Shown one piece after another: positions 32,461-64,000 of a stretch of DNA of 64,000 bases. The position numbers were made by a program, and so were the translations under genes. The stretch spans positions 27,584,001 to 27,648,000 of the forward strand of contig CP086569.2 of assembly GCA_009914755.4 (NCBI GenBank), written 5' to 3'. Origin of the DNA: the human T2T-CHM13v2.0 reference genome, Homo sapiens. Within the stretch, counting starts at the first letter, position 1. Every line of letters starts with the position of its first letter. Below the pieces are notes generated by a model that ran no database searches, had not been told where the DNA came from, and saw nothing but the letters and a program-made list of their open reading frames with translations.

Positions 32461-32467
32461 AGTGGTG
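32453..32467. other. A-to-B higher-order-repeat junction (breakpoint within a 15-bp stretch identical in both HORs)
   Basis: The last A-diagnostic base is at 32452 (agaTtgg versus B agaCtgg). The first B-diagnostic base is at 32468 (gtggtgTagagtgc versus A gtggtgCagagtgg). Downstream is continuous B-type sequence. Confidence 0.8.
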
Positions 32468-33009
32468 TAGAGTGCAGTGGATTGGAGTGGAGAGGAATGG
32501 AGTGGAGTGAAGTCGAGTTGAGTGGAATGGAATGGAGTGGAGCAGAGTGGAATGCAAAAGAATGAAGTGGATTGTTGTGGAATGGAATGGCGTGGAATGG
32601 AGTGGAATAGAATGGAATGGAATCGCATGGAAGGATATCAAATCAAATGGAATCGAAGGAAAATTATGAATCCAATGGAATCGAAAGGATTCCAAAGGAA
32701 CGGATTCAAAAGGCCTTTAATGGAATGGAAAGGTATGCAGTGAAGTGGAGTGGAGTGGAGTGGATTGTTTTAGAGTGAAATGGGGTGGATTGGAACACTA
32801 TGTGGTGGAGTGGAGTGTAGTGGATCGGAGTGGAGTGCCGTGGAGTGGACTAGAGTGGGGTGGAGTGGAGTGCATTGGAGTGGAATGGAGTGGAGTGGGG
32901 TGGAATGGAATGGAATGGCATCAAATCGCATGGTAATGAATCAAATGGAATCAAATGGAATGAAATAATGGAATCGAAGGCAAACGAATGGAATCGAATA
33001 GCACTGATT
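32461..33009. repeat. Partial B unit tail (alpha-type tail variants) immediately after the junction
   Basis: Matches B offsets ~2580 to 3130. Carries 'ggaatcgaaggaaaattatg' and 'aaggaacggattc', which are alpha-tail markers. Confidence 0.7.
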
Positions 33010-36000
33010 CTACTGACTTCGAAGAAAATGAAATGAAATGCGGTGAAGTGGAGTGGAGTGGAATGTATTAGGGTGGAATGGAATTGAATGGTGTGGAGTG
33101 GAGTGGAGTGCCCAGGAGTGGAATGGGAAGAAATGGAATTGAACGGAGTGGAGTGGAGTGGAATGGAGGGTAATGGAGTGGAATGGAGTGGAGTGGAGTA
33201 GAGTGGAATGGGTTGGAGTGGAATGCAGAGGACAGGAGTGGAGTGTGGTGGACTGGAGTGGAGTGGAGTTGAGTGGAGTGGATTGGATTGAAATAGAGCG
33301 GAGCAGAGTGGAATGGAATTGAATCACATGGTACTGAATCAAATCGAATGGAATTAAATCGAATGAAAAAACGGAATCAAAAGCAAACGAATGGAGTCAA
33401 ACCACATTGGTTAGACTGACATCGAATAATATCAAAAGAAATGTGGTGAAGTGGAGTGGAGTGTAATGAAATGGGGTGGAATGAAATTGAATGGAGTGGA
33501 GTGGAGTGGAGTCTACTGGAGTGGAATGGAATGGAATGGAAAGGAATGGAATAGAATGGAGTGAAGTGCAGTGCAGTGAAATGGAGTGGAAAGGAATGGA
33601 ATGGAAAGAATTGAATCAAATGGAATCGAAGTGAATCGAATCTAATGAAATTGAACGCAAAAAATGGAATGAGTAGAATCGAAAAAGATGGATTCAAATG
33701 GCAACAAATAAAATTGAATGGAATGCGGTGAGGTGGAGGGGATTGGAATGGAGTTGAATGGAATGGGGTGTAATTGAATTGAATGGAGTGGAGTGGAGTG
33801 AACTGGAGTGGAATGGAATGGAATGGGCAGGCCTGGAATTGAAAGGCGTGGAGTGGAGTGGAATTGAGAGGAGTGGAATGGAGTAGGGTGGATTGTGGTG
33901 GAGAATATTGGAAAAGAGTGGAGTGGAATGGAATGGAATGGAGTGGAGTGGAATGGAATGGAAAGGAATTGAGTGAAGTGGAGTGTAGTGGAATGGAGAG
34001 TAATGGAGTGGAGTGGACTGGAGTGGAGTAGATTGCAGTGCATTGGACTGTAGGGGATAGAAGTGGCTTGGAGTCCATAGGAGTGGAGTGGAATGGAATG
34101 GAATGGAGTGGAATGGACTGGAACGGAATGGAATGGAATGGATTTAAATGGCAGGGAATCAAATCGAATTGAATCATATTGAATCAAGTCGAATCTAGTG
34201 GAGGAAAGAAATCGAATGGAATCGAATGGAATGAATTGAATGGAGTCGAATATCAACCATGGAATCGAAAGTAATGTGGTAAAGTGGAGTGGAGTGTTAT
34301 GGAGTGGAATGGAATGGGGTGACATGGAATTGAATACAGTGGAGAGGAGTGGAGTGGATTGGGCTAGAGTGGAACGGAAAGGGAAGGAATGAAACTGAAT
34401 GGAGTGGAGTGGAATGGAGTGGAATGGAATGGAATGGAAAGGAATGGAATGGAATGGAATGGAAAGGAATGGAATGGAACGGAATGGAGTGGAATGGAAT
34501 CAAATCACATGGAACTGAATGAAACCGAATTGAATGAAATTGAATGGAGAAAATGGAATCAAATGGAGTCAAATCGAACGGATTCGAATGTCATTGAATG
34601 GAATCGAAAGGAATGCAGTGAGGTGGGGTTGAGTGGAATGGAGTGGAATGGAATGGGATGAATGGAATTGAATGGAGTGGAGTGGAATGGAATGGAATGG
34701 AAAGGAATGGAATTGAACAAAATGGAGTGTAGTAGAATGGAGTGGATTGGAGTGGAGTGCAGGGGAGTGCAGTGGAATGAAGAGGAGTGTAGTTGAATGG
34801 AATGGAATGTATGGAATGTCCTGGAATAGAATGGATAAGAATGGAATGGAATGGAATCGCATGGAATTGAATAGAATCAAATCGAATTGAATAGAATCTA
34901 ATGGAAAAAATGGAGTCAAATGGAATCGAATGGCATAGAATCGAACGGTTTTGAATGTCAGTGAATGGAAACGAATGGAATGCGATGAAGTGGAGCGCAG
35001 TGGAGTGGAAAGGAGTGCAATGGAATAGGGTGGAACTGAATTTAATGGGACAGAGTGGATTGGAGTGGACTGGAGTGGAATGGAATGGGAAGGAATGGGA
35101 TTGGAAGGAGTGGCGTGCAGTGGAGTGGAGTGGCATGGAGTGGAGTGGAGTGGAATGGAGTGGAATGGAATGGAGTGGAATGGAGTGGATTGGAATGGAA
35201 TGGAGTGCAGAGGAATGGAATGGAATGGTATAGAGTGGACAGGAATGGAGTGGAGCGGATTGGAATGGAATGGAATGGAACTGAATGGACTGGAATGGAA
35301 TGGAATAGAATGGAATCACAGGGAATCAAATTGGATTGAATCGAATCGAATGGAAAAAATGAAATCAAATGAAATTGAATGGAATCGAAATGAATGTAAA
35401 CAATGGAATCCAATGGAATCCAATGGAATCGAATCAAATGGTTTTGAATGGCGTAAAATGAGATCGCAAGGAAGGCAGTGAATTGGAGTGGAGTGGAATA
35501 GAGAGGAATGAATTGGAATGGAGTGGAGTGGAATGGAGAGGATTCCAGTGGAGTGGAGTGGATTGGATTTTAATGGAATGGAATAGACTGGATTGGAGTG
35601 GTGTAGAGTGCAGTGGATTGGAGTGGAGAGGAATGGAGTGGAGTGAAGTCGAGTTGAGTGGAATGGAATGGAGTGGAGCAGAGTGGAATGCAAAAGAATG
35701 AAGTGGATTGGTGTGGAATGGACTGGCGTGGAATGGAGTGGAATAGAATGGAATGGAATCGCATGGAAGGATATCAAATCAAATGGAATCGAAGGAAAAT
35801 TATGAATCCAATGGAATCGAAAGGATTCCAAAGGAACGGATTCGAAAGGCCTTTAATGGAATGGAAAGGTATGCAGTGAAGTGGAGTGGAGTGGATTGTT
35901 TTAGAGTGAAATGGGGCGGATTGGAACACTATGTGCTGGAGTGGAGTGTAGTGGATCGGAGTGGAGTGCCGTGGAGTGGACTAGAGTGGGGTGGAGTGGA

Positions 36001-36140
36001 GTGCATTGGAGTGGAATGGAGTGGAGTGGGGTGGAATGGAATGGAATGGCATCAAATCGCATGGTAATGAATCAAATGGAATCAAATGGAATGAAATAAT
36101 GGAATCGAAGGCAAACGAATGGAATCGAATTGCACTGATT
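33010..36140. repeat. HOR unit B1 (3,131 bp), alpha sub-type
   Basis: 'gggcaggcctgg' at ~33830. Short 'gcggattgg(aatgg)3aactg' at ~35251. 'ggagtggattggaatgg' at ~35170. Confidence 0.85.
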
Positions 36141-39100
36141 CTACTGACTTCGAAGAAAATGAAATGAAATGCGGTGAAGTGGAGTGGAGTGGAATGTATT
36201 AGGGTGGAATGGAATTGAATGGTGTGGAGTGGAGTGGAGTGCCCAGGAGTGGAATGGGAAGAAATGGAATTGAACGGAGTGGAGTGGAGTGGAATGGAGG
36301 GTAATGGAGTGGAATGGAGTGGAGTGGAGTAGAGTGGAATGGGTTGGAGTGGAATGCAGAGGACAGGAGTGGAGTGTGGTGGACTGGAGTGGAGTGGAGT
36401 TGAGTGGAGTGGATTGGATTGAAATAGAGCGGAGCAGAGTGGAATGGAATTGAATCACATGGTACTGAATCAAATCGAATGGAATTAAATCGAATGAAAA
36501 AACGGAATCAAAAGCAAACGAATGGAGTCAAACCACATTGGTTAGACTGACATCGAATAATATCAAAAGAAATGTGGTGAAGTGGAGTGGAGTGTAATGA
36601 AATGGGGTGGAATGAAATTGAATGGAGTGGAGTGGAGTGGAGTCTACTGGAGTGGAATGGAATGGAATGGAAAGGAATGGAATAGAATGGAGTGAAGGGC
36701 AGTGCAGTGAAATGGAGTGGAAAGGAATGGAATGGAAAGAATTGAATCAAATGGAATCGAAGTGAATCGAATCTAATGAAATTGAACGCAAAAAATGGAA
36801 TGAGTAGAATCGAAAAAGATGGATTCAAATGGCAACAAATAAAATTGAATGGAATGCGGTGAGGTGGAGGGGATTGGAATGGAGTTGAATGGAATGGGGT
36901 GTAATTGAATTGAATGGAGTGGAGTGGAGTGAACTGGAGTGGAATGGAATGGAATGGGCCGGCATGGAATTGAAAGGCGTGGACTGGAGTGGAGTTGAGA
37001 TGAGTGGAATGGAGTAGGGTGGATTGTGGTGGAGAATATTGGAAAAGAGTGGAGTGGAATGGAATGGAATGGAGTGGAGTGGAATGGAATGGAATGGAAT
37101 TGAGTGAAGTGGAGTGTAGTGGAATGGAGAGTAATGGAGTGGAGTGGACTGGAGTGGAGTAGATTGCAGTGCATTGGACTGTAGGGGATAGAAGTGGCTT
37201 GGAGTCCATAGGAGTGGAGTGGAATGGAATGGAATGGAGTGGAATGGACTGGAACGGAATGGAATGGAATGGATTTAAATGGCAGGGAATCAAATCGAAT
37301 TGAATCATATTGAATCAAGTCGAATCGAGTGGAGGAAAGAAATCGAATGAAATCGAATGGAATGAATTGAATGCAGTCGAATATCAACCATGGAATCGAA
37401 AGTAATGTGGTAAAGTGGAGTGGAGTGTTATGGAGTGGAATGGAAGGGGGTGACATGGAATTGAATACAGTGGAGAGGAGTGGAGTGGATTGGGCTAGAG
37501 TGGAAAGGAAAGGGAAGGAATGAAACTGAATGGAGTGGAGTGGAATGGAGTGGAATGGAATGGAATGGAATGGAATGGAATGGAATGGAATGGAATGGAA
37601 TGGAACGGAATGGAGTGGAATGGAATCGAATCACATGGAACTGAATGAAACCGAATTGAATGAAATTGAATGGAGAAAATGGAATCAAATGGAATCAAAT
37701 CGAACGGATTCGAATGTCATTGAATGGAATCGAAAGGAATGCAGTGAGGTGGGGTTGAGTGGAATGGAGTGGAATGGAATGGGATGAATGGAATTGAATG
37801 GAGTGGAGTGGAATGGAATGGAATGGAAAGGAATGGAATTGAACAAAATGGAGTGTAGTAGAATGGAGTGGATTGGAGTGGAGTGCAGGGGAGTGCAGTG
37901 GAATGAAGAGGAGTGTAGTTGAATGGAATGGAATGTATGGAATGTACTGGAATAGAATGGATAAGAATGGAATGGGATGGAATCGCATGGAATTGAATAG
38001 AATCAAATCGAATTGAATAGAATCAAATGGAAAAAATGGAGTCAAATGGAATCGAATGGCATAGAATCGAACGGTTTTGAATGTCAGTGAATGGAAACGA
38101 ATGGAATGCGATGAAGTGGAGCGCAGTGGAGTGGAAAGGAGTGCAATGGAATAGGGTGGAACTGAATTTAATGGAACAGAGTGGATTGGAGTGGACTGGA
38201 GTGGAATGGAATGGGAAGGAATGGGATTGAAAGGAGTGGCGTGCAGTGGAGTGGAGTGGCATGGAGTGGAGTGGAGTGGAATGGAGTGGAATGGAATGGA
38301 GTGGAATGGAGTGTATTGGAATGGAATGGAGTGCAGAGGAATGGAATGGAATGGTATAGAGTGGACAGGATTGGAGTGGAGCGGATTGGAATGGAATGGA
38401 ATGGAATGGAATGGAACTGAATGGACTGGAATGGAATGGAATAGAATGGAATCACAGGGAATCAAATTGGATTGAATCGAATCGAATGGAAAAAATGAAA
38501 TCAAATGAAATTGAATGGAATCGAAATGAATGTAAACAATGGAATCCAATGGAATCCAATGGAATCGAATCAAATGGTTTTGAATGGCGTAAAATGAAAT
38601 CGCAAGGAAGGCAGTGAATTGGAGTGGAGTGGAATAGAGAGGAATGAATTGGAATGGAGTGGAGTGGAATGGAGTGGATTCCAGTGGAGTGGAGTGGATT
38701 GGATTTTAATGGAATGGAATAGACTGGATTGGAGTGGTGTAGAGTGCAGTGGATTGGAGTGGAGAGGAATGGAGTGGAGTGAAGTCGAGTTGAGTGGAAT
38801 GGAATGGAGTGGAGCAGAGTGGAATGCAAAAGAATGAAGTGGATTGGTGTGGAATGGAATGGCGTGGAATGGAGTGGAATAGAATGGAATGGAATCGCAT
38901 GGAAGGATATCAAATCAAATGGAATCGAACGAAAATTATGAATCCAATGGAATCAAAAGGATTCCAAAGGAAAGGATTCGAAAGGCCTTTAATGGAATGG
39001 AAAGGTATACAGTGAAGTGGAGTGCAGTGGAGTGGATTGTTTTAGAGTGAAATGGGGTGGATTGGAACACTATGTGATGGAGTGGAGTGTAGTGGATCGG

Positions 39101-39281
39101 AGTGGAGTGCCGTGGAGTGGACTAGAGTGGGGTGGAGTGGAGTGCATTGGAGTGGAATGGAGTGGAGTGGGGTGGAATGGAATGGAATGGCATCAAATCG
39201 CATGGTAATGAATCAAATGGAATCAAATGGAATGAAATAATGGAATCGAAGGCAAACGAATGGAATCGAATTGCACTGATT
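36141..39281. repeat. HOR unit B2 (3,141 bp), beta sub-type
   Basis: 'gggccggcatgg' at ~36958. Long 'gcggattgg(aatgg)5aactg' at ~38381. 'ggagtgtattggaatgg' at ~38309. (GGAAT)10 tract at 37552 to 37601. Confidence 0.85.
37552..37601 (+). repeat. Uninterrupted (GGAAT)10 tract nested in HOR B (exemplar; length and interruptions vary between B units)
   Basis: Exact ggaat x10 followed by ggaac. The homologous tract in B1 (~34421 to 34480) is interrupted by ggaaa and differs in length. Confidence 0.85.
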
Positions 39282-41980
39282 CTACTGACTTCGAAGAAAA
39301 TGAAATGAAATGCGGTGAAGTGGAGTGGAGTGGAATGTATTAGGGTGGAATGGAATTGAATGGTGTGGAGTGGAGTGGAGTGCCCAGGAGTGGAATGGGA
39401 AGAAATGGAATTGAACGGAGTGGAGTGGAGTGGAATGGAGGGTAATGGAGTGGAATGGAGTGGAGTGGAGTAGAGTGGAATGGGTTGGAGTGGAATGCAG
39501 AGGACAGGAGTGGAGTGTGGTGGACTGGAGTGGAGTGGAGTTGAGTGGAGTGGATTGGATTGAAATAGAGCGGAGCAGAGTGGAATGGAATTGAATCACA
39601 TGGTACTGAATCAAATCGAATGGAATTAAATCGAATGAAAAAACGGAATCAAAAGCAAACGAATGGAGTCAAACCACATTGGTTAGACTGACATCGAATA
39701 ATATCAAAAGAAATGTGGTGAAGTGGAGTGGAGTGTAATGAAATGGGGTGGAATGAAATTGAATGGAGTGGAGTGGAGTGGAGTCTACTGGAGTGGAATG
39801 GAATGGAATGGAAAGGAATGGAATAGAATGGAGTGAAGGGCAGTGCAGTGAAATGGAGTGGAAAGGAATGGAATGGAAAGAATTGAATCAAATGGAATCG
39901 AAGTGAATCGAATCTAATGAAATTGAACGCAAAAAATGGAATGAGTAGAATCGAAAAAGATGGATTCAAATGGCAACAAATAAAATTGAATGGAATGCGG
40001 TGAGGTGGAGGGGATTGGAATGGAGTTGAATGGAATGGGGTGTAATTGAATTGAATGGAGTGGAGTGGAGTGAACTGGAGTGGAATGGAATGGAATGGGC
40101 AGGCATGGAATTGAAAGGCGTGGAGTGGAGTGGAATTGAGAGGAGTGGAATGGAGTAGGGTGGATTGTGGTGGAGAATATTGGAAAAGAGTGGAGTGGAA
40201 TGGAATGGAATGGAGTGGAGTGGAATGGAATGGAAAGGAATTGAGTGAAGTGGAGTGTAGTGGAATGGAGAGTAATGGAGTGGAGTGGACTGGAGTGGAG
40301 TAGATTGCAGTGCATTGGACTGTAGGGGATAGAAGTGGCTTGGAGTCCATAGGAGTGGAGTGGAATGGAATGGAATGGAGTGGAATGGACTGGAACGGAA
40401 TGGAATGGAATGGATTTAAATGGCAGGGAATCAAATCGAATTGAATCATATTGAATCAAGTCGAATCTAGTGGAGGAAAGAAATCGAATGGAATCGAATG
40501 GAATGAATTGAATGGAGTTGAACATCAACCATGGAATCGAAAGTAATGTGGTAAAGTGGAGTGGAGTGTTATGGAGTGGAATGGAAGGGGGTGACATGGA
40601 ATTGAATACAGTGGAGAGGAGTGGAGTGGATTGGGCTAGAGTGGAACGGAAAGGGAAGGAATGGAACTGAATGGAGTGGAGTGGAATGGAGTGGAATGGA
40701 ATGGAATGGAATGGAATGGAATGGAATGGAATGGAACGGAATGGAGTGGAATGGAATCGAATGACATGGAACTGAATGAAACCGAATTGAATGAAATTGA
40801 ATGGAGAAAATGGAATCAAATGGAATCAAATCGAACGGATTCGAATGTCATTGAATGGAATCGAAAGGAATGCAGTGAGGTGGGGTTGAGTGGACTGGAG
40901 TGGAATGGAATGGGAAGGAATGGGATTGAAAGGAGTGGCGTGCAGTGGAGTGGAGTGGCATGGAGTGGAGTGGAGTGGAATGGAGTGGAATGGAATGGAG
41001 TGGAATGGAGTGTATTGGAATGGAATGGAGTGCAGAGGAATGGAATGGAATGGTATAGAGTGGACAGGATTGGAGTGGAGCGGATTGGAATGGAATGGAA
41101 TGGAATGGAATGGAACTGAATGGACTGGAATGGAATGGAATAGAATGGAATCACAGGGAATCAAATTGGATTGAATCGAATCGAATGGAAAAAATGAAAT
41201 CAAATGAAATTGAATGGAATCGAAATGAATGTAAACAATGGAATCCAATGGAATCCAATGGAATCGAATCAAATGGTTTTGAATGGCGTAAAATGAAATC
41301 GCAAGGAAGGCAGTGAATTGGAGTGGAGTGGAATAGAGAGGAATGAATTGGAATGGAGTGGAGTGGAATGGAGTGGATTCCAGTGGAGTGGAGTGGATTG
41401 GATTTTAATGGAATGGAATAGACTGGATTGGAGTGGTGTAGAGTGCAGTGGATTGGAGTGGAGAGGAATGGAGTGGAGTGAAGTCGAGTTGAGTGGAATG
41501 GAATGGAGTGGAGCAGAGTGGAATGCAAAAGAATGAAGTGGATTGGTGTGGAATGGAATGGCGTGGAATGGAGTGGAATAGAATGGAATGGAATCGCATG
41601 GAAGGATATCAAATCAAATGGAATCGAACGAAAATTATGAATCCAATGGAATCAAAAGGATTCCAAAGGAAAGGATTCGAAAGGCCTTTAATGGAATGGA
41701 AAGGTATACAGTGAATTGGAGTGCAGTGGAGTGGATTGTTTTAGAGTGAAATGGGGTGGATTGGAACACTATGTGATGGAGTGGAGTGTAGTGGATCGGA
41801 GTGGAGTGCCGTGGAGTGGACTAGAGTGGGGTGGAGTGGAGTGCATTGGAGTGGAATGGAGTGGAGTGGGGTGGAATGGAATGGAATGGCATCAAATCGC
41901 ATGGTAATGAATCAAATGGAATCAAATGGAATGAAATAATGGAATCGAAGGCAAACGAATGGAATCGAATTGCACTGATT
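39282..41980. repeat. HOR unit B3 (2,699 bp): alpha-type head and beta-type tail, with a ~432-bp internal deletion
   Basis: Alpha marker 'gggcaggcatgg' at ~40097. Beta markers 'gtgtattgg' at ~41005 and the long aatgg run at ~41081. At ~40883 to 40890 ('gttgagtgga|ctggagtggaatggaatgggaagg') the sequence jumps ~432 bp relative to a full unit (compare 37765 to 38197 in B2). Confidence 0.8.
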
Positions 41981-44900: not shown

Positions 44901-45111
44901 TATGTGGTGGAGTGGAGTGTAGTGGATCGGAGTGGAGTGCCGTGGAGTGGACTAGAGTGGGGTGGAGTGGAGTGCATTGGAGTGGAATGGAGTGGAGTGG
45001 GGTGGAATGGAATGGAATGGCATCAAATCGCATGGTAATGAATCAAATGGAATCAAATGGAATGAAATAATGGAATCGAAGGCAAACGAATGGAATCGAA
45101 TTGCACTGATT
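41981..45111. repeat. HOR unit B4 (3,131 bp), alpha
   Basis: cagg at ~42797. Short aatgg run at ~44221. Confidence 0.85.
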
Positions 45112-48100: not shown

Positions 48101-48242
48101 GAGTGCATTGGAGTGGAATGGAGTGGAGTGGGGTGGAATGGAATGGAATGGCATCAAATCGCATGGTAATGAATCAAATGGAATCAAATGGAATGAAATA
48201 ATGGAATCGAAGGCAAACGAATGGAATCGAATTGCACTGATT
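45112..48242. repeat. HOR unit B5 (3,131 bp), beta
   Basis: ccgg at ~45929. Long aatgg run at ~47341. Private 'ggaatcatatggaaagg' at ~46790. Confidence 0.85.
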
Positions 48243-51200: not shown

Positions 51201-51363
51201 GGACTAGAGTGGGGTGGAGTGGAGTGCATTGGAGTGGAATGGAGTGGAGTGGGGTGGAATGGAATGGAATGGCATCAAATCGCATGGTAATGAATCAAAT
51301 GGAATCAAATGGAATGAAATAATGGAATCGAAGGCAAACGAATGGAATCGAATTGCACTGATT
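48243..51363. repeat. HOR unit B6 (3,121 bp), alpha
   Basis: cagg at ~49062. Short run at ~50465. Private 'gagtggaatagaatggaatggagtgg' at ~49321. Confidence 0.85.
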
Positions 51364-54300: not shown

Positions 54301-54504
54301 TGGAGTGGAGTGTAGTGGATCGGAGTGGAGTGCCGTGGAGTGGACTAGAGTGGGGTGGAGTGGAGTGCATTGGAGTGGAATGGAGTGGAGTGGGGTGGAA
54401 TGGAATGGAATGGCATCAAATCGCATGGTAATGAATCAAATGGAATCAAATGGAATGAAATAATGGAATCGAAGGCAAACGAATGGAATCGAATTGCACT
54501 GATT
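51364..54504. repeat. HOR unit B7 (3,141 bp), beta
   Basis: ccgg at ~52185. Long run at ~53596. Confidence 0.85.
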
Positions 54505-57500
54505 CTACTGACTTCGAAGAAAATGAAATGAAATGCGGTGAAGTGGAGTGGAGTGGAATGTATTAGGGTGGAATGGAATTGAATGGTGTGGAGTGGAGTG
54601 GAGTGCCCAGGAGTGGAATGGGAAGAAATGGAATTGAACGGAGTGGAGTGGAGTGGAATGGAGGGTAATGGAGTGGAATGGAGTGGAGTGGAGTAGAGTG
54701 GAATGGGTTGGAGTGGAATGCAGAGGACAGGAGTGGAGTGTGGTGGACTGGAGTGGAGTGGAGTTGAGTGGAGTGGATTGGATTGAAATAGAGCGGAGCA
54801 GAGTGGAATGGAATTGAATCACATGGTACTGAATCAAATCGAATGGAATTAAATCGAATGAAAAAACGGAATCAAAAGCAAACGAATGGAGTCAAACCAC
54901 ATTGGTTAGACTGACATCGAATAATATCAAAAGAAATGTGGTGAAGTGGAGTGGAGTGTAATGAAATGGGGTGGAATGAAATTGAATGGAGTGGAGTGGA
55001 GTGGAGTCTACTGGAGTGGAATGGAATGGAATGGAAAGGAATGGAATAGAATGGAGTGAAGTGCAGTGCAGTGAAATGGAGTGGAAAGGAATGGAATGGA
55101 AAGAATTGAATCAAATGGAATCGAAGTGAATCGAATCTAATGAAATTGAACGCAAAAAATGGAATGAGTAGAATCGAAAAAGATGGATTCAAATGGCAAC
55201 AAATAAAATTGAATGGAATGCGGTGAGGTGGAGGGGATTGGAATGGAGTTGAATGGAATGGGGTGTAATTGAATTGAATGGAGTGTAGTGGAGTGAACTG
55301 GAGTGGAATGGAATGGAATGGGCAGGCATGGAATTGAAAGGCGTGGAGTGGAGTGGAATTGAGAGGAGTGGAATGGAGTAGGGAGGATTGTGGTGGAGAA
55401 TATTGGAAAAGAGTGGAGTGGAATGGAATGGAATGGAGTGGAGTGGAATGGAATGGAAAGGAATTGAGTGAAGTGGAGTGTAGTGGAATGGAGAGTAATG
55501 GAGTGGAGTGGACTGGAGTGGAGTAGATTGCAGTGCATTGGACTGTAGGGGATAGAAGTGGCTTGGAGTCCATAGGAGTGGAGTGGAATGGAATGGAATG
55601 GAGTGGAATGGACTGGAACGGAATGGAATGGAATGGATTTAAATGGCAGGGAATCAAATCGAATTGAATCATATTGAATCAAGTCGAATCGAGTGGAGGA
55701 AAGAAATCGAATGAAATCGAATGGAATGAATTGAATGGAGTCGAATATCAACCATGGAATCGAAAGTAATGTGGTAAAGTGGAGTGGAGTGTTATGGAGT
55801 GGAATGGAATGGGGTGACATGGAATTGAATACAGTGGAGAGGAGTGGAGTGGATTGGGCTAGAGTGGAACGGAAAGGGAAGGAATGGAACTGAATGGAGT
55901 GGAGTGGAATGGAGTAGAATGGAATGGAATGGAATGGAATGGAATGGAATGGAATGGAACGGAATGGAGTGGAATGGAATCGAATGACATGGAACTGAAT
56001 GAAACCGAATTGAATGAAATTGAATGGAGAAAATGGAATCAAATGGAATCAAATCGAACGGATTCGAATGTCATTGAATGGAATCGAAAGGAATGCAGTG
56101 AGGTGGGGTTGGGTGGAATGGAGTGGAATGGAATGGGATGAATGGAATTGAATGGAGTGGAGTGGAATGGAATGGAATGGAAAGGAATGGAATTGAACAA
56201 AATGGAGTGTAGTAGAATGGAGTGGATTGGAGTGGAGTGCAGGGGAGTGCAGTGGAATGAAGAGGAGTGTAGTTGAATGGAATGGGATGTATGGAATGTA
56301 CTGGAATAGAATGGATAAGAATGGAATGGAATGGAATCGCATGGAATTGAATAGAATCAAATCGAATTGAATAGAATCTAATGGAAAAAATGGAGTCAAA
56401 TGGAATCGAATGGCATAGAATCGAACGGTTTTGAATGTCAGTGAATGGAAACGAATGGAATGCGATGAAGTGGAGCGCAGTGGAGTGGAAAGGAGTGCAA
56501 TGGAATAGGGTGGAACTGAATTTAATGGAACAGAGTGGATTGGAGTGGACTGGAGTGGAATGGAATGGGAAGGAATGGGATTGAAAGGAGTGGCGTGCAG
56601 TGGAGTGGAGTGGCATGGAGTGGAGTGGAGTGGAATGGAGTGGAATGGAATGGAGTGGAATGGAGTGGATTGGAATGGAATGGAGTGCAGAGGAATGAAA
56701 TGGAATGGTATAGAGTGGACAGGAATGGAGTGGAGCGGATTGGAATGGAATGGAATGGAACTGAATGGACTGGAATGGAATGGAATAGAATGGAATCACA
56801 GGGAATCAAATTGGATTGAATCGAATCGAATGGAAAAAATGAAATCAAATGAAATTGAATGGAATCGAAATGAATGTAAACAATGGAATCCAATGGAATC
56901 CAATGGAATCGAATCAAATGGTTTTGAATGGCGTAAAATGAGATCGCAAGGAAGGCAGTGAATTCTAGTGGAGTGGAATAGAGAGGAATGAATTGGAATG
57001 GAGTGGAGTGGAATGGAGTGGATTCCAGTGGAGTGGAGTGGATTGGATTTTAATGGAATGGAATAGACTGGATTGGAGTGGCGTAGAGTGCAGTGGATTG
57101 GAGTGGAGAGGAATGGAGTGGAGTGAAGTCGAGTTGAGTGTAATGGAATGGAGTGGAGCAGAGTGGAATGCAAAAGAATGAAGTGGATTGGTGTGGAATG
57201 GAATGGCGTGGAATGGAGTGGAATAGAATGGAATGGAATCGCATGGAAGGATATCAAATCAAATGGAATCGAAGGAAAATTATGAATCCAATGGAATCGA
57301 AAGCATTCCAAAGGAACGGATTCGAAAGGCATTTAATGGAATGGAAAGGTATGCAGTGAAGTGGAGTGGAGTGGAGTGGATTGTTTTAGAGTGAAATGGG
57401 GTGGATTGGAACACTATGTGGTGGAGTGGAGTGTAGTGGATCGGAGTGGAGTGCCGTGGAGTGGACTAGAGTGGGGTGGAGTGGAGTGCATTGGAGTGGA

Positions 57501-57625
57501 ATGGAGTGGAGTGGGGTGGAATGGAATGGAATGGCATCAAATCGCATGGTAATGAATCAAATGGAATCAAATGGAATGAAATAATGGAATAGAAGGCAAA
57601 CGAATGGAATCGAATTGCACTGTTT
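54505..57625. repeat. HOR unit B8 (3,121 bp), alpha
   Basis: cagg at ~55320. Short run at ~56731. Confidence 0.85.
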
Positions 57626-60600
57626 CTACTGACTTCGAAGAAAATGAAATGAAATGCGGTGAAGTGGAGTGGAGTGGAATGTATTAGGGTGGAATGGAAT
57701 TGAATGGTGTGGAGTGGAGTGGAGTGCCCAGGAGTGGAATGGGAAGAAATGGAATTGAACGGAGTGGAGTGGAGTGGAATGGAGGGTAATGGAGTGGAAT
57801 GGAGTGGAGTGGAGTAGATTGGAATGGGTTGGAGTGGAATGCAGAGGACAGGAGTGGAGTGTGGTGGACTGGAGTGGAGTGGAGTTGAGTGGAGTGGATT
57901 GGATTGAAATAGAGCGGAGCAGAGTGGAATGGAATTGAATCACATGGTACTGAATCAAATCGAATGGAATTAAATCGAATGAAAAAACGGAATCAAAAGC
58001 AAACGAATGGAGTCAAACCACATTGGTTAGACTGACATCGAATAATATCAAAAGAAATGTGGTGAAGTGGAGTGGAGTGTAATGAAATGGGGTGGAATGA
58101 AATTGAATGGAGTGGAGTGGAGTGGAGTCTACTGGAGTGGAATGGAATGGAATGGAAAGGAATGGAATAGAATGGAGTGAAGGGCAGTGCAGTGAAATGG
58201 AGTGGAAAGGAATGGAATGGAAAGAATTGAATCAAATGGAATCGAAGTGAATCGAATCTAATGAAATTGAACGCAAAAAATGGAATGAGTAGAATCGAAA
58301 AAGATGGATTCAAATGGCAACAAATAAAATTGAATGGAATGCGGTGAGGTGGAGGGGATTGGAATGGAGTTGAATGGAATGGGGTGTAATTGAATTGAAT
58401 GGAGTGGAGTGGAGTGAACTGGAGTGGAATGGAATGGAATGGGCCGGCATGGAATTGAAAGGCGTGGACTGGAGTGGAGTTGAGATGAGTGGAATGGAGT
58501 AGGGTGGATTGTGGTGGAGAATATTGGAAAAGAGTGGAGTGGAATGGAATGGAATGGAGTGGAGTGGAATGGAATGGAATGGAATTGAGTGAAGTGGAGT
58601 GTAGTGGAATGGGGAGTAATGGAGTGGAGTGGACTGGAGTGGAGTAGATTGCAGTGCATTGGACTGTAGGGGATAGAAGTGGCTTGGAGTCCATAGGAGT
58701 GGAGTGGAATGGAATGGAATGGAGTGGAATGGACTGGAACGGAATGGAATGGAATGGATTTAAATGGCAGGGAATCAAATCGAATTGAATCATATTGAAT
58801 CAAGTCGAATCGAGTGGAGGAAAGAAATCGAATGAAATCGAATGGAATGAATTGAATGGAGTCGAATATCAACCATGGAATCGAAAGTAATGTGGTAAAG
58901 TGGAGTGGAGTGTTATGGAGTGGAATGGAAGGGGGTGACATGGAATTGAATACAGTGGAGAGGAGTGGAGTGGATTGGGCTAGAGTGGAAAGGAAAGGGA
59001 AGGAATGAAACTGAATGGAGTGGAGTGGAATGGAGTGGAATGGAATGGAATGGAATGGAATGGAATGGAATGGAATGGAACGGAATGGAGTGGAATGGAA
59101 TCGAATCACATGGAACTGAATGAAACCGAATTGAATGAAATTGAATGGAGAAAATGGAATCAAATGGAATCAAATCGAACGGATTCGAATGTCATTGAAT
59201 GGAATCGAAAGGAATGCAGTGAGGTGGGGTTGAGTGGAATGGAGTGGAATGGAATGGGATGAATGGAATTGAATGGAGTGGAGTGGAATGGAATCATATG
59301 GAAAGGAATGGAATTGAACAAAATGGAGTGTAGTAGAATGGAGTGGATTGGAGTGGAGTGCAGGGGAGTGCAGTGGAATGAAGAGGAGTGTAGTTGAATG
59401 GAATGGAATGTATGGAATGTACTGGAATAGAATGGATAAGAATGGAATGGAATGGAATCGCATGGAATTGAATAGAATCAAATCGAATTGAATAGAATCA
59501 AATGGAAAAAATGGAGTCAAATGGAATCGAATGGCATAGAATCGAACGGTTTTGAATGTCAGTGAATGGAAACGAATGGAATGCGATGAAGTGGAGCGCA
59601 GTGGAGTGGAAAGGAGTGCAATGGAATAGGGTGGAACTGAATTTAATGGAACAGAGTGGATTGGAGTGGACTGGAGTGGAATGGAATGGGAAGGAATGGG
59701 ATTGAAAGGAGTGGCGTGCAGTGGAGTGGAGTGGCATGGAGTGGAGTGGAGTGGAATGGAGTGGAATGGAATGGAGTGGAATGGAGTGTATTGGAATGGA
59801 ATGGAGTGCAGAGGAATGGAATGGAATGGTATAGAGTGGACAGGATTGGAGTGGAGCGGATTGGAATGGAATGGAATGGAATGGAATGGAACTGAATGGA
59901 CTGGAATGGAATGGAATAGAATGGAATCACAGGGAATCAAATTGGATTGAATCGAATCGAATGGAAAAAATGAAATCAAATGAAATTGAATGGAATCGAA
60001 ATGAATGTAAACAATGGAATCCAATGGAATCCAATGGAATCGAATCAAATGGTTTTGAATGGCGTAAAATGAAATCGCAAGGAAGGCAGTGAATTGGAGT
60101 GGAGTGGAATAGAGAGGAATGAATTGGAATGGAGTGGAGTGGAATGGAGTGGATTCCAGTGGAGTGGAGTGGATTGGATTTTAATGGAATGGAATAGACT
60201 GGATTGGAGTGGTGTAGAGTGCAGTGGATTGGAGTGGAGAGGAATGGAGTGGAGTGAAGTCGAGTTGAGTGGAATGGAATGGAGTGGAGCAGAGTGGAAT
60301 GCAAAAGAATGAAGTGGATTGGTGTGGAATGGAATGGCGTGGAATGGAGTGGAATAGAATGGAATGGAATCGCATGGAAGGATATCAAATCAAATGGAAT
60401 CGAACGAAAATTATGAATCCAATGGAATCAAAAGGATTCCAAAGGAAAGGATTCGAAAGGCCTTTAATGGAATGGAAAGGTATACAGTGAAGTGGAGTGC
60501 AGTGGAGTGGATTGTTTTAGAGTGAAATGGGGTGGATTGGAACACTATGTGATGGAGTGGAGTGTAGTGGATCGGAGTGGAGTGCCGTGGAGTGGACTAG

Positions 60601-60756
60601 AGTGGGGTGGAGTGGAGTGCATTGGAGTGGAATGGAGTGGAGTGGGGTGGAATGGAATGGAATGGCATCAAATCGCATGGTAATGAATCAAATGGAATCA
60701 AATGGAATGAAATAATGGAATCGAAGGCAAACGAATGGAATCGAATTGCACTGATT
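57626..60756. repeat. HOR unit B9 (3,131 bp), beta
   Basis: ccgg at ~58440. Long run at ~59861. Shares the private 'ggaatcatatggaaagg' variant (~59288) with B5. Confidence 0.85.
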
Positions 60757-63700
60757 CTACTGACTTCGAAGAAAATGAAATGAAATGCGGTGAAGTGGAG
60801 TGGAGTGGAATGTATTAGGGTGGAATGGAATTGAATGGTGTGGAGTGGAGTGGAGTGCCCAGGAGTGGAATGGGAAGAAATGGAATTGAACGGAGTGGAG
60901 TGGAGTGGAATGGAGGGTAATGGAGTGGAATGGAGTGGAGTGGAGTAGAGTGGAATGGGTTGGAGTGGAATGCAGAGGACAGGAGTGGAGTGTGGTGGAC
61001 TGGAGTGGAGTGGAGTTGAGTGGAGTGGATTGGATTGAAATAGAGCGGAGCAGAGTGGAATGGAATTGAATCACATGGTACTGAATCAAATCGAATGGAA
61101 TTAAATCGAATGAAAAAACGGAATCAAAAGCAAACGAATGGAGTCAAACCACATTGGTTAGACTGACATCGAATAATATCAAAAGAAATGTGGTGAAGTG
61201 GAGTGGAGTGTAATGAAATGGGGTGGAATGAAATTGAATGGAGTGGAGTGGAGTGGAGTCTACTGGAGTGGAATGGAATGGAATGGAAAGGAATGGAATA
61301 GAATGGAGTGAAGGGCAGTGCAGTGAAATGGAGTGGAAAGGAATGGAATGGAAAGAATTGAATCAAATGGAATCGAAGTGAATCGAATCTAATGAAATTG
61401 AACGCAAAAAATGGAATGAGTAGAATCGAAAAAGATGGATTCAAATGGCAACAAATAAAATTGAATGGAATGCGGTGAGGTGGAGGGGATTGGAATGGAG
61501 TTGAATGGAATGGGGTGTAATTGAATTGAATGGAGTGGAGTGGAGTGAACTGGAGTGGAATGGAATGGAATGGGCAGGCATGGAATTGAAAGGCGTGGAG
61601 TGGAGTGGAATTGAGAGGAGTGGAATGGAGTAGGGTGGATTGTGGTGGAGAATATTGGAAAAGAGTGGAGTGGAATGGAATGGAATGGAGTGGAGTGGAA
61701 TGGAATGGAAAGGAATTGAGTGAAGTGGAGTGTAGTGGAATGGAGAGTAATGGAGTGGAGTGGACTGGAGTGGAGTAGATTGCAGTGCATTGGACTGTAG
61801 GGGATAGAAGTGGCTTGGAGTCCATAGGAGTGGAGTGGAATAGAATGGAATGGAGTGGAATGGACTGGAACGGAATGGAATGGAATGGATTTAAATGGCA
61901 GGGAATCAAATCGAATTGAATCATATTGAATCAAGTCGAATCGAGTGGAGGAAAGAAATCGAATGAAATCGAATGGAATGAATTGAATGGAGTCGAACAT
62001 CAACCATGGAATCGAAAGTAATGTGGTAAAGTGGAGTGGAGTGTTATGGAGTGGAATGGAAGGGGGTGACATGGAATTGAATACAATGGAGAGGAGTGGA
62101 GTGGATTGGGCTAGAGTGGAACGGAAAGGGAAGGAATGGAACTGAATGGAGTGGAGTGGAATGGAGCGGAATGGAATGGAATGGAATGGAATGGAATGGA
62201 ATGGAATGGAACGGAATGGAGTGGAATGGAATCGAATGACATGGAACTGAATGAAACCGAATTGAATGAAATTGAATGGAGAAAATGGAATCAAATGGAA
62301 TCAAATCGAACGGATTCGAATGTCATTGAATGGAATCGAAAGGAATGCAGTGAGGTGGGGTTGAGTGGAATGGAGTGGAATGGAATGGGATGAGTGGAAT
62401 TGAATGGAGTGGAGTGGAATGGAATGGAATGGAAAGGAATGGAATTGAACAAAATGGAGTGTAATAGAATGGAGTGGATTGGAGTGGAGTGCAGGGGAGT
62501 GCAGTGGAATGAAGAGGAGTGTAGTTGAATGGAATGGGATGTATGGAATGTACTGGAATAGAATGGATAAGAATGGAATGGAATGGAATCGCATGGAATT
62601 GAATAGAATCAAATCGAATTGAATAGAATCTAATGGAAAAAATGGAGTCAAATGGAATCGAATGGCATAGAATCGAACGGTTTTGAATGGCAGTGAAGGG
62701 AAACGAATGGAATGCGATGAAGTGGAGCGCAGTGGAGTGGAAAGGAGTGCAATGGAATAGGGTGGAACTGAATTTAATGGAACAGAGTGGATTGGAGTGG
62801 ACTGGAGTGGAATGGAATGGGAAGGAATGGGATTGAAAGGAGTGGCGTGCAGTGGAGTGGAGTGGCATGGAGTGGAGTGGAGTGGAATGGAGTGGAATGG
62901 AATGGAGTGGAATGGAGTGGATTGGAATGGAATGGAGTGCAGAGGAATGGAATGGAATGGTATAGAGTGGACAGGAATGGAGTGGAGCGGATTGGAATGG
63001 AATGGAATGGAACTGAATGGACTGGAATGGAATGGAATAGAATGGAATCACAGGGAATCAAATTGGATTGAATCGAATCGAATGGAAAAAATGAAATCAA
63101 ATGAAATTGAATGGAATCGAAATGAATGTAAACAATGGAATCCAATGGAATCCAATGGAATCGAATCAAATGGTTTTGAATGGCGTAAAATGAGATCGCA
63201 AGGAAGGCAGTGAATTGGAGTGGAGTGGAATAGAGAGGAATGAATTGGAATGGAGTGGAGTGGAATGGAGTGGATTCCAGTGGAGTGGAGTGGATTGGAT
63301 TTTAATGGAATGGAATAGACTGGATTGGAGTGGTGTAGAGTGCAGTGGATTGGAGTGGAGAGGAATGGAGTGGAGTGAAGTCGAGTTGAGTGGAATGGAA
63401 TGGAGTGGAGCAGAGTGGAATGCAAAAGAATGAAGTGGATTGGTGTGGAATGGAATGGCGTGGAATGGAGTGGAATAGAATGGAATGGAATCGCATGGAA
63501 GGATATCAAATCAAATGGAATCGAAGGAAAATTATGAATCCAATGGAATCGAAAAGATTCCAAAGGAACGGATTCGAAAGGCCTTTAATGGAATGGAAAG
63601 GTATGCAGTGAAGTGGAGTGGAGTGGAGTGGATTGTTTTAGAGTGAAATGGGGTGGATTGGAACACTATGTGGTGGAGTGGAGTGTAGTGGATCGGAGTG

Positions 63701-63887
63701 GAGTGCCGTGGAGTGGACTAGAGTGGGGTGGAGTGGAGTGCATTGGAGTGGAATGGAGTGGAGTGGGGTGGAATGGAATGGAATGGCATCAAATCGCATG
63801 GTAATGAATCAAATGGAATCAAATGGAATGAAATAATGGAATCGAAGGCAAACGAATGGAATCGAATTGCACTGATTCTACTGACTT
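60757..63887. repeat. HOR unit B10 (3,131 bp), alpha
   Basis: cagg at ~61572. Short run at ~62991. Shares the private 'gaatagaatggaatggagtgg' variant (~61841) with B6. Confidence 0.85.
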
Positions 63888-64000
63888 CGAAGAAAATGAA
63901 ATGAAATGCGGTGAAGTGGAGTGGAGTGGAATGTATTAGGGTGGAATGGAATTGAATGGTGTGGAGTGGAGTGGAGTGCCCAGGAGTGGAATGGGAAGAA
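63888..64000. repeat. Start of next B unit (partial, truncated by window end)
   Basis: The landmark 'gcactgattctactgacttcgaagaaaatgaaatgaaatgcgg' restarts at ~63879. Confidence 0.7.

What the first reader, a model, noticed from the sequence alone, without database searches (positions are those of the whole stretch)
32461..64000. Array B is a dimeric super-HOR: strictly alternating alpha/beta 3.13-kb sub-units (~6.26-kb period)
Three independent diagnostic sites alternate unit by unit: 'gggcaggc' versus 'gggccggc' near offset 820, short versus long 'gcggattgg(aatgg)n aactg' runs near offset 2240, and 'ggagtggattgg' versus 'ggagtgtattgg' near offset 2160. Tail variants 'gaaggaaaattatg...ggaacgg' versus 'gaacgaaaattatg...ggaaagg' alternate as well. 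The observed order is alpha (33.0), beta (36.1), hybrid (39.3), alpha (42.0), beta (45.1), alpha (48.2), beta (51.4), alpha (54.5), beta (57.6), alpha (60.8). So the true homogenisation unit in B is about 6.26 kb, not 3.13 kb.
Basis: seen in the sequence. Interest (0 to 1): 0.5.

Follow-up and report, generated by a model that had tools for sequence, protein, structure and literature searches.

The report
Two-unit repeat in pentamer satellite
The right half of this window is a (GGAAT)n-type satellite whose 3.13-kb repeat units really do come in two alternating flavours, so the block being copied is a 6.26-kb pair; this is a genuine but ordinary by-product of how satellite arrays grow by unequal exchange.

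Summary
From 32,468 to 64,000 the window holds ten full 3.12-3.14-kb units of a (GGAAT)n-derived satellite. Ten SNP columns and one 10-bp indel alternate perfectly between two unit types. Alpha is B01, B04, B06, B08 and B10; beta is B02, B05, B07 and B09. Units two apart differ at 1-24 sites, adjacent units at 30-39. In 200-bp windows, identity is 98.3-98.4% at odd unit offsets and 99.3-99.6% at even offsets. The alternating split ranks 1 of 126 possible 4|5 splits. The neighbouring array A (2.87-kb units) shows no alternation (rank 123 of 126).

Using array A as outgroup, both types carry derived states. Two adjacent units therefore diverged by about 1% and were then amplified together as a 6.26-kb block.

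The "hybrid" unit at 39,278 is alpha on the left and beta on the right. The join lies inside a 7-bp identity within two ~29-bp homologous stretches 432 bp apart, a footprint of out-of-register unequal exchange.

This is a dimeric nested tandem repeat, a known kind of organisation in human satellite 3-type DNA (for example D15Z1, 1.8/3.6 kb). No function is indicated for the pairing. The source organism and chromosome were not established. Interest is low.

The parts
1..32452 (+). Array A. About 11 units of 2873-2887 bp from the same pentamer-derived satellite family. It serves here as outgroup and negative control and has no alpha/beta alternation.
   Evidence: -
- Units are 98.8-99.9% identical within A and about 94% identical to B.
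- Informative sites define contiguous blocks, and the alternation split ranks 123 of 126.
32453..32467 (+). In-register switch from A-type to B-type sequence inside one unit (the junction unit 30185-33005, 2821 bp).
   Evidence: follows the sites that are fixed differences between A and B. The junction unit carries A states up to 32452, apart from one B state at 32390, and B states from 32468 onward.
32468..33005 (+). B-type tail of the junction unit. It carries the alpha-like (ancestral) state at the tail diagnostic sites.
   Evidence: One search shows GAAGG at 32655 and GGAACGG at 32692. One search shows these states equal those of array A.
33006..36136 (+). B01, an alpha-type edge unit and the most divergent copy.
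   Evidence: - It is alpha at 12 of the 15 alpha/beta diagnostic features tabulated, and beta-like at columns 1387, 1501 and 1801.
- It differs from every other unit at 24-36 SNPs.
36137..39277 (+). B02, a beta unit (beta1 sub-type, 3141 bp).
   Evidence: It is beta at all diagnostic columns. It differs from B05 and B09 by 8 SNPs each.
39278..41976 (+). B03, the recombinant unit of 2699 bp. It is alpha from 39278 to about 40887 and beta from about 40895 to 41976. The join lies at 40888-40894 and 432 bp are missing.
   Evidence: -: alpha states at columns 824-1501, beta states at columns 2183-2824.
- the join lies in the shared GAGTGGA of two ~29-bp homologous stretches.
- the left part differs from B04 by 1 SNP, and the right part differs from B02, B05 and B09 by 1 SNP each.
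41977..45107 (+). B04, an alpha unit (alpha1 sub-type).
   Evidence: It is alpha at all diagnostic columns. It differs from B06 and B10 by 5-6 SNPs.
45108..48238 (+). B05, a beta unit (beta1). It carries the beta-only CCGG/GCCGGC site at about 45931.
48239..51359 (+). B06, an alpha unit (alpha1, 3121 bp).
   Evidence: It differs from B10 by 1 SNP.
51360..54500 (+). B07, a beta unit of a diverged sub-type (beta2, 3141 bp). It lacks the beta1-specific tail changes.
   Evidence: - It is beta at all alternating columns.
- It differs from the other beta units at 15-19 SNPs.
- It carries the non-beta1 state at tail columns 2842, 2878, 2894 and 2946.
- It has a CCGG site at about 52183.
54501..57621 (+). 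B08, an alpha unit of a diverged sub-type (alpha2). With B07 it forms one variant dimer.
   Evidence: - It is alpha at all alternating columns.
- It differs from the other alpha units at 23-28 SNPs, with a dozen or more private changes.
- At column 562 it keeps the T found in array A and in B01.
57622..60752 (+). B09, a beta unit (beta1).
   Evidence: It differs from B05 by 6 SNPs. It has a CCGG site at about 58445.
60753..63873 (+). B10, an alpha unit (alpha1).
   Evidence: It differs from B06 by 1 SNP.
63874..64000 (+). Start of an eleventh unit, cut by the window end. It cannot be typed, because the first diagnostic site is at unit offset 824.
   Evidence: The anchor at 63874 is.

Best explanation
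Array B is a pentamer-derived (GGAAT)n satellite of the human satellite 3 type, organised as a nested tandem repeat with four levels.

| Level | Size | Similarity between copies |
|---|---|---|
| Pentamers | 5 bp | - |
| Irregular sub-repeats | about 320-500 bp | about 70-80% |
| Unit | 3.13 kb | about 99% |
| Dimer of two unit variants, beta then alpha | 6.26 kb | 99.3-100% between same-type units |

**Proposed history**
1. Two adjacent 3.13-kb units each accumulated private changes, reaching about 1% divergence. This step is shown.
2. Out-of-register events whose offset was a multiple of two units then copied the pair as a block. The candidate mechanism is unequal sister-chromatid or homologue exchange, or break-induced or slipped replication. 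This step is inferred; only the register is shown.
3. A young beta1-alpha1 version of the dimer spread locally around an older beta2-alpha2 copy.
4. A further exchange misaligned by 2699 bp (one unit minus one 432-bp sub-repeat interval) inserted the recombinant unit B03 between B02 and B04.

The pairing is a record of the array's turnover. It is not a device with a function of its own.
For: **Shown directly**
- 10 SNP columns plus a 10-bp indel co-segregate in perfect alternation.
- Even-offset identity exceeds odd-offset identity at every lag from 1 to 6. Mean SNP differences by lag are 33.7, 17.4, 33.2, 10.0, 33.0 and 5.0.
- The alternating partition ranks 1 of 126. The control array A ranks 123 of 126 and shows only neighbour-block similarity.
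- Polarising with array A, beta is derived at 7 alternating sites and alpha at 4, including the 10-bp deletion. Both lineages therefore diverged before amplification.
- Sub-types pair up only in the beta-then-alpha phase. B05-B06 and B09-B10 differ by 6+1 sites over 6.25 kb. B07-B08 differs from them by about 41 sites.
- The B03 breakpoint lies inside GAGTGGA, within two ~29-bp homologous stretches 432 bp apart.
- B03-left is 1 SNP from B04-left and 6 SNPs from the next closest alpha units. B03-right is 1 SNP from B02-right.

**From the literature**
- Kilobase units in HSat2/3 are called nested tandem repeats, and their periodicity varies locally within arrays.
- Published HSat3 unit sizes range from 584 to 3564 bp, and D15Z1 is listed as 1800/3600 bp.
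- Unequal exchange is the accepted explanation for DYZ1/DYZ2 block structure.
Against: - Only about 4.5 dimers are visible, and the array runs off the window end.
- The left edge does not keep the phase: an alpha-like tail is followed by an alpha unit.
- Lag-4 and lag-6 similarity exceed lag-2, so a larger duplication unit or nested recent duplications may overlie the dimer.
- The molecular mechanism cannot be distinguished from sequence alone. Candidates are sister-chromatid exchange, homologue exchange, replication slippage and gene conversion.
- The raw reads are not available, so assembly accuracy is assumed.
Confidence: 0.88

Rival explanations
1. The real period is longer than the dimer. 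It would be a 12.5-kb tetramer (beta1 alpha1 beta2 alpha2) or a larger segmental duplication, and the 6.26-kb alternation would be only a sub-level of it.
For: - Lag-4 and lag-6 comparisons are more similar than lag-2: 10.0 and 5.0 mean SNPs against 17.4.
- In 200-bp windows, 60-81% are perfect at lags 4 and 6 against 44% at lag 2.
- B05-B06 is nearly identical to B09-B10, with the diverged pair B07-B08 between them.
Against: - A strict tetramer predicts beta2 and alpha2 at B03 and B04. B04 is alpha1, and B03 is an alpha1/beta1 recombinant.
- Only one beta2-alpha2 dimer is present, so no 12.5-kb periodicity can be demonstrated.
- Even if this rival were true, the alpha/beta alternation would still stand.
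Confidence: 0.12
2. The alternation is an assembly artefact. Two slightly different unit populations, from two haplotypes or from two parts of the array, were interleaved by the assembler.
For: Satellite arrays are error-prone to assemble, and the reads could not be inspected here.
Against: - The alternation is regular over seven consecutive units, with 11 linked markers spread along each unit.
- It is accompanied by consistent length differences.
- The recombinant unit has a clean homology-mediated junction.
- A mis-join would not create a unit-by-unit alternation.
- Independent metagenome contigs carry an alpha-derived tail state (L010) and a beta-derived tail state (L015).
Confidence: 0.03
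3. The pattern is chance or recurrent mutation. Unlinked polymorphisms among 3.13-kb units happen to look alternating.
For: There are only nine typable units.
Against: - Ten of 35 informative columns fall on a single bipartition, the perfectly alternating one.
- That bipartition ranks 1 of 126 by distance.
- The adjacent array A, analysed identically, has no alternating column.
Confidence: 0.01
4. The hybrid unit B03 arose in two steps: an in-register alpha/beta crossover or gene conversion, followed by a separate 432-bp deletion. This contrasts with a single out-of-register exchange.
For: No diagnostic site lies between column 1501 and the deletion, or between the deletion and column 2183. 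The type switch is therefore only bracketed to columns 1501-2183.
Against: - One event explains both features.
- The deletion endpoints lie in homologous sub-repeat stretches.
- The two halves match the immediately flanking units B04 and B02 almost exactly, as a duplicative unequal exchange predicts.
Confidence: 0.15

Closest known systems
Nested tandem repeats (NTRs) of human satellite 3 (HSat3), e.g. DYZ1 (about 3.6 kb), as defined in the T2T centromere and Y-chromosome papers
   Same: - It is derived from a (CATTC)n/(GGAAT)n pentamer, with extreme strand asymmetry (GC skew about +0.72).
- It has kilobase units of high identity built from degenerate pentamers and A-rich interruptions.
- Periodicity changes locally within a contiguous array. 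Here it goes from 2.87 kb to 3.13 kb to 6.26 kb.
   Different: - Unit sizes of 2.87 and 3.13 kb match none of the published HSat3 unit sizes listed in Altemose 2014 Table S1, which range from 584 to 3564 bp.
- Species, chromosome and HSat3 subfamily could not be determined here.
D15Z1 (HSat3A5, chromosome 15), the KpnI 1.8-kb / 3.6-kb family
   Same: It is an HSat3 array in which a kilobase unit also shows a twofold periodicity, listed as 1800/3600 bp. This is the closest precedent for a dimeric level above an HSat3 unit.
   Different: The unit size differs. No sequence relationship was tested. The D15Z1 dimer was defined by restriction-site periodicity, not by a full set of linked variants.
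Alpha-satellite higher-order repeats, HOR haplotypes and 'superHORs'
   Same: - The logic is the same. Diverged neighbours are amplified together, so identity is higher at the multimer offset than at the monomer offset.
- Young variants expand locally within older ones, as in layered expansion.
   Different: - Alpha-satellite HORs are built from discrete 171-bp monomers that differ by 20-40%.
- Here the 'monomers' are 3.13-kb composite units that differ by only about 1%.
- The family is unrelated in sequence, and pericentromeric satellites of this type are not the kinetochore-forming DNA.
Composite beta-satellite/LSau NTR on chromosome 14 (2043 bp, 'and its 4086 bp dimer')
   Same: It is another documented case in which NTRprism reports both an NTR and its dimer.
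   Different: It belongs to an unrelated satellite family, and the basis of that dimer signal is not described at the variant level.

Membership tests
HSat3-type pentameric satellite ((CATTC)n/(GGAAT)n-derived) | The sequence is dominated by degenerate GGAAT/CATTC pentamers on one strand. | tested here: met
   - TRF reports a single period-5 array, consensus GAATG, over 11-63867.
- GC skew is +0.69 to +0.76 throughout.
- The sequence as read directly shows the same.
HSat3-type pentameric satellite ((CATTC)n/(GGAAT)n-derived) | Assignment to one of the 11 HSat3 subfamilies by subfamily-specific 24-mers (Altemose 2014). | not testable with these tools
   The held copy of the 24-mer list is truncated, and the part read lists only HSat2A1 24-mers. 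No human reference genome is available in the tools.
HSat3-type pentameric satellite ((CATTC)n/(GGAAT)n-derived) | Human (or primate) origin. | tested here: inconclusive
   - An exact 40-mer from the unit occurs on 20 ENA metagenome contigs that are 93-99% identical to A or B units. This fits a common host contaminant such as human.
- No sample metadata were available.
- There were no hits in the bacterial and archaeal genome collection.
Nested tandem repeat (NTR) / higher-order periodicity | A long unit repeats head to tail with much higher identity than its internal sub-repeats have to each other. | tested here: met
   Units are 98.8-100% identical. Internal sub-repeats are about 70-80% identical, with irregular 320-500-bp spacing.
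Dimeric (two-variant) higher-order level | Identity at the two-unit offset exceeds identity at the one-unit offset, with linked diagnostic variants alternating. | tested here: met
.
Dimeric (two-variant) higher-order level | The periodicity persists over a long array (tens of copies or more). | not testable with these tools
   Only about 4.5 dimers lie in the window, and the array is cut at 64000.
Alpha-satellite HOR (strict sense) | Built from a discrete number of about 171-bp monomers of similar length. | tested here: not met
   The base period is 5 bp and the sub-repeats are irregular. 'Super-HOR' is therefore an analogy, not a membership.

The most novel reading that the evidence does not exclude
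The beta1-alpha1 dimer could be a very young, still-expanding layer inside an older HSat3-type array, a small-scale counterpart of the layered expansion described for alpha-satellite HOR haplotypes. Its copy number, and the 2699-bp recombinant unit, would then be polymorphic between individuals. Together they would give a tractable marker for measuring the rate and register of unequal exchange in pericentromeric satellite DNA. A weaker speculation is that the beta-only CpG-containing site (GCCGGC) imposes a 6.26-kb periodicity on DNA methylation or chromatin.
Probability: 0.1. Interest if true: 0.4.

Novelty: new member of a known kind. Interest (0 to 1): 0.2.

Why it matters
**Consequences for annotation**
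- Array B is annotated correctly with a 6.26-kb period, not 3.13 kb. This affects periodicity calls, consensus building, and the design of probes or unique markers.
- The window is a compact, fully resolved example of how a pentameric satellite changes its repeat unit in steps. In 64 kb it goes from 2.87 kb, through an in-register switch, to 3.13 kb and then to a 6.26-kb dimer.
- It also contains a breakpoint-resolved product of unequal exchange.

**Limits**
- It does not change any concept. Multi-level periodicity and unequal exchange in satellites have been established for decades.

Tried and rejected
- **Ungapped offset identity over 33006-64000.** The 432-bp deletion in B03 shifts the register and depresses all long offsets (second block). 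The analysis was therefore restricted to 41977-64000.
- **First variable-column listing.** It hid SNPs inside the 432-bp region, because columns with the same gap pattern were merged. These were re-listed, which added columns 1801 and 1894 to the alternating set.
- **Source or chromosome identification.**
  - A scan of the bacterial and archaeal genome collection for a unit-specific 40-mer found nothing.
  - The metagenome scan found 20 related contigs without sample metadata.
  - No contig spans two diagnostic regions, so none can confirm alpha-beta linkage in another individual.
- **HSat3 subfamily typing.** Typing with the Altemose 2014 24-mers failed, because the held file is truncated within the HSat2A1 list.
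- **Literature searches.** Searches and the T2T centromere supplement gave no published HSat3 unit of 2.87, 3.13 or 6.26 kb.
- **Rfam scan.** The scan of the whole window found nothing.
- **Strict 12.5-kb tetramer.** Considered and not supported upstream, because B04 is alpha1.
- **Recent duplication in B as the cause of the extra ~350 bp relative to A.** Considered and rejected. That segment is only about 75% similar to any other sub-repeat, so loss in A is more likely.
- **Protein tools.** Not used. Open reading frames across pentamer repeats are not evidence of genes.
Full report
**What the window is**

The whole 64-kb window is one pentameric satellite.
- Tandem Repeats Finder reports a single period-5 array, consensus GAATG, from 11 to 63867.
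- Base composition is constant, at about 43-44% G+C with a GC skew of about +0.72. All copies therefore lie in one orientation.
- A 24-mer offset histogram shows two long periodicities, about 2.87 kb and about 3.13 kb, with their multiples.
- A conserved anchor, GATTCTACTGACTTCGA[G/A]G, occurs 22 times. It places eleven units of 2873-2887 bp in the left half (array A).
- It also places ten full units in the right half (array B). They start at 33006, 36137, 39278, 41977, 45108, 48239, 51360, 54501, 57622 and 60753, and an eleventh begins at 63874.

A and B units are about 94% identical to each other and 98.8-100% identical within each array. The A-to-B change is a clean, in-register switch inside one unit. 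At sites that are fixed differences between A and B, that unit carries A states up to 32452, apart from one B state at 32390. It carries B states from 32468 onward.

**Checking the observation**

These are GGGC[A/C]GGC near offset 820, GGAGTG[G/T]ATTGG, three versus five AATGG before AACTG, and GAA[G/C]GAAAATTATG. The only imperfection is the second tail site, GGAA[C/A]GG. It reads C instead of A at 54187, in the tail of the beta unit that starts at 51360.

A multiple alignment of the ten B units gives these unit types:

| Type | Units |
|---|---|
| Alpha | B01, B04, B06, B08, B10 |
| Beta | B02, B05, B07, B09 |
| Hybrid | B03 |

- Ten SNP columns alternate perfectly among the nine non-hybrid units: 824, 858, 865, 959, 1894, 2183, 2240, 2467, 2799 and 2824.
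- A 10-bp indel at columns 2256-2265 alternates in the same way.
- Column 848 has three states, with alpha uniform.
- Columns 1387, 1501 and 1801 alternate in all units except the edge unit B01.

Of 35 parsimony-informative SNP columns, 10 fall on the single alternating bipartition, which is the most frequent pattern.

**Is it more than chance?**

*Pairwise SNP counts*

| Comparison | Differences |
|---|---|
| Alpha-alpha, among B04-B10 | 1-24 |
| Beta-beta | 6-19 |
| Alpha-beta | 30-39 |

- Among all 126 ways to split the nine units 4|5, the alternating split gives the largest between-minus-within distance.
- Mean differences by unit lag over B04-B10 are 33.7, 17.4, 33.2, 10.0, 33.0 and 5.0 for lags 1 to 6.

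| Offset (units) | Mean identity | Perfect windows |
|---|---|---|
| 1, 3, 5 | 98.33, 98.43, 98.37% | 20-24% |
| 2, 4, 6 | 99.27, 99.58, 99.55% | 44-81% |

*Negative control.* Array A was treated identically. It has no alternating column, and its informative sites mark contiguous blocks (units 7-9 and units 1-2). The alternation split ranks 123 of 126, and lag means are flat at 19-26.

**How the dimer arose**

Array A serves as outgroup. The beta state is derived at seven alternating sites. The alpha state is derived at four, including the 10-bp deletion. Neither type is simply the ancestor of the other. Two neighbouring units each accumulated changes, to about 1% divergence, and were afterwards multiplied together.

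Sub-types support inheritance as a block.
- B04, B06 and B10 form a tight alpha1 group, 1-6 differences apart.
- B02, B05 and B09 form a tight beta1 group, 6-8 differences apart.
- B07 (beta2) and B08 (alpha2) are each diverged from their type, by 15-19 and 23-24 differences.
- B07 and B08 are adjacent. Read in the beta-then-alpha phase, the array is beta1-alpha1, beta1-alpha1, beta2-alpha2, beta1-alpha1. Read in the other phase, the sub-types mix.
- B05-B06 and B09-B10 differ at only 7 sites in 6.25 kb.
- B08 keeps an ancestral T at column 562 that is shared with B01 and all A units. The beta2-alpha2 pair and B01 therefore look like older copies, and beta1-alpha1 looks like a young local expansion.

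This is inference from shared states. The mechanism is inferred from the register and is not shown. It could be unequal sister-chromatid or homologue exchange, or replication-based duplication, at offsets of two units. It is the standard explanation for such arrays.

**The hybrid unit**

B03 (39278-41976, 2699 bp) has alpha states at all diagnostic columns up to 1501 and beta states from 2183 on. It lacks alignment columns 1626-2057, which is 432 bp.

The two deletion endpoints lie in homologous stretches:
- GAGTGGAATGGAGTGGAATGGAATGGGAT on the left.
- GAGTGGACTGGAGTGGAATGGAATGGGAA on the right.

In B03 the left flank is followed by the right-type C. This puts the crossover in the shared GAGTGGA at 40888-40894.

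| B03 half | Closest units | Next closest |
|---|---|---|
| Left | B04, 1 SNP | B06 and B10, 6 SNPs |
| Right | B02, B05 and B09, 1 SNP each | B07, 6 SNPs |

The simplest reading is one unequal exchange between two copies of the array misaligned by 2699 bp, which is 3131 minus 432. The exchange inserted a recombinant between B02 and B04 and left the alpha/beta phase intact. A deletion of 3563 bp from a longer array would give the same local structure and is not excluded. A two-step origin is possible but less economical.

**Internal anatomy**

A self-comparison of one unit shows about eight irregular sub-repeats. Each has a GGAGT/GGAAT-rich part and an A-rich part such as AATCGAATGGAATCAAAT. 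They are spaced about 320-500 bp apart and are 70-80% alike. B has one more sub-repeat than A, about 350 bp at unit coordinates 1109-1459. That segment is only about 75% similar to any other sub-repeat, so it is old and was probably lost in A.

**What it is called and what is known**

The T2T centromere paper proposes the term nested tandem repeat for the kilobase units of HSat2/3, because they are not built of discrete equal monomers. [quoted passage not shown]
- DYZ1 is a 3.6-kb HSat3 NTR.
- Altemose 2014 Table S1 lists published HSat3 unit sizes from 584 to 3564 bp. These include "1800/3600" for the chromosome 15 KpnI family, which is a precedent for a twofold level.
- An NTR "and its dimer" is also reported for a beta-satellite composite.
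- I found no published unit of 2.87, 3.13 or 6.26 kb.

The analogy to alpha-satellite HORs and superHORs holds for the logic but not for membership.

**Origin**

A unit-specific 40-mer is absent from the bacterial and archaeal genome collection. It is present on 20 ENA metagenome contigs that are 93-99% identical to A or B units. This is what one expects of a frequent host contaminant, most likely human. That is an inference, because no metadata were available.
- Those contigs mostly carry the ancestral state at each diagnostic site.
- One contig (L010) has an alpha-derived tail state and one (L015) a beta-derived tail state.
- None spans enough sequence to test linkage.
- HSat3 subfamily typing was not possible.
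- Rfam finds nothing in the window.

**A practical prediction**

The beta-specific C at column 824 creates GCCGGC, which contains CCGG. In silico, HpaII/MspI and NaeI-type enzymes cut 41977-64000 only at 45931, 52183 and 58445, giving 6252-bp and 6262-bp fragments. EcoRV, NcoI, SwaI and many other enzymes cut once per 3.12-3.14-kb unit.

**Verdict**

- The term should be NTR, not HOR.
- One tail site is imperfect.
- The edge unit is divergent.
- There is a variant dimer.
- The hybrid is a breakpoint-resolved product of unequal exchange.

The feature is a well-documented kind of satellite organisation with no indicated function of its own. It is a new instance rather than a new kind, and of low general interest.

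Noticed in passing
window 1-32452: Array A consists of 2873-2887-bp units that are 98.8-99.9% identical. Similarity is block-wise: units 1-2 are 99.9% alike and units 7-9 are 99.6-99.7% alike. There is no alternation. Unit lengths differ by multiples of 5 bp (2873, 2878, 2883, 2887).
   Followed up: partly
window 32453-32467 (junction unit 30185-33005): A-type sequence switches to B-type in register within a 15-bp interval of one unit, with a single isolated B state upstream at 32390. This looks like one homologous exchange between two diverged arrays of the same family.
   Followed up: yes
window 49347-49697 (and the same offset in every B unit): B units carry one extra sub-repeat of about 350 bp that is absent from all A units. 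It is only about 75% similar to any other sub-repeat, so it is old and was probably deleted in the A lineage. A in turn has a 65-bp stretch, and several stretches of 5-20 bp, that B lacks.
   Followed up: partly
window 51360-57621: The adjacent units B07 and B08 form a diverged variant dimer. B08 has a dozen or more private substitutions and shares the ancestral T at alignment column 562 with B01 and array A. B07 lacks four tail changes that the other beta units share. This suggests an older dimer flanked by a younger expansion.
   Followed up: partly
B alignment columns 1191-1246 (e.g. window 43166-43221 in B04): A cluster of sites (columns 1191, 1214, 1242, 1246) groups B01, B03 and B04 against the other alpha units, which carry the beta state there. 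This may be a short gene-conversion tract between unit types. The region lies in the B-specific insert, so it could not be polarised with array A.
   Followed up: no
L001-L020 (ENA metagenome contigs): Twenty metagenome contigs carry the same anchor 40-mer and are 93-99% identical to A or B units. L001 has two anchors 2801 bp apart. Further unit-length variants of this satellite family therefore exist elsewhere, in the same genome or in other individuals.
   Followed up: partly
window 45931, 52183, 58445 (also 36960): The only CCGG/GCCGGC sites in the regular part of array B are created by the beta-specific C. The beta-derived states here and at the GAACG tail site create CpG dinucleotides instead of destroying them.
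   Followed up: partly
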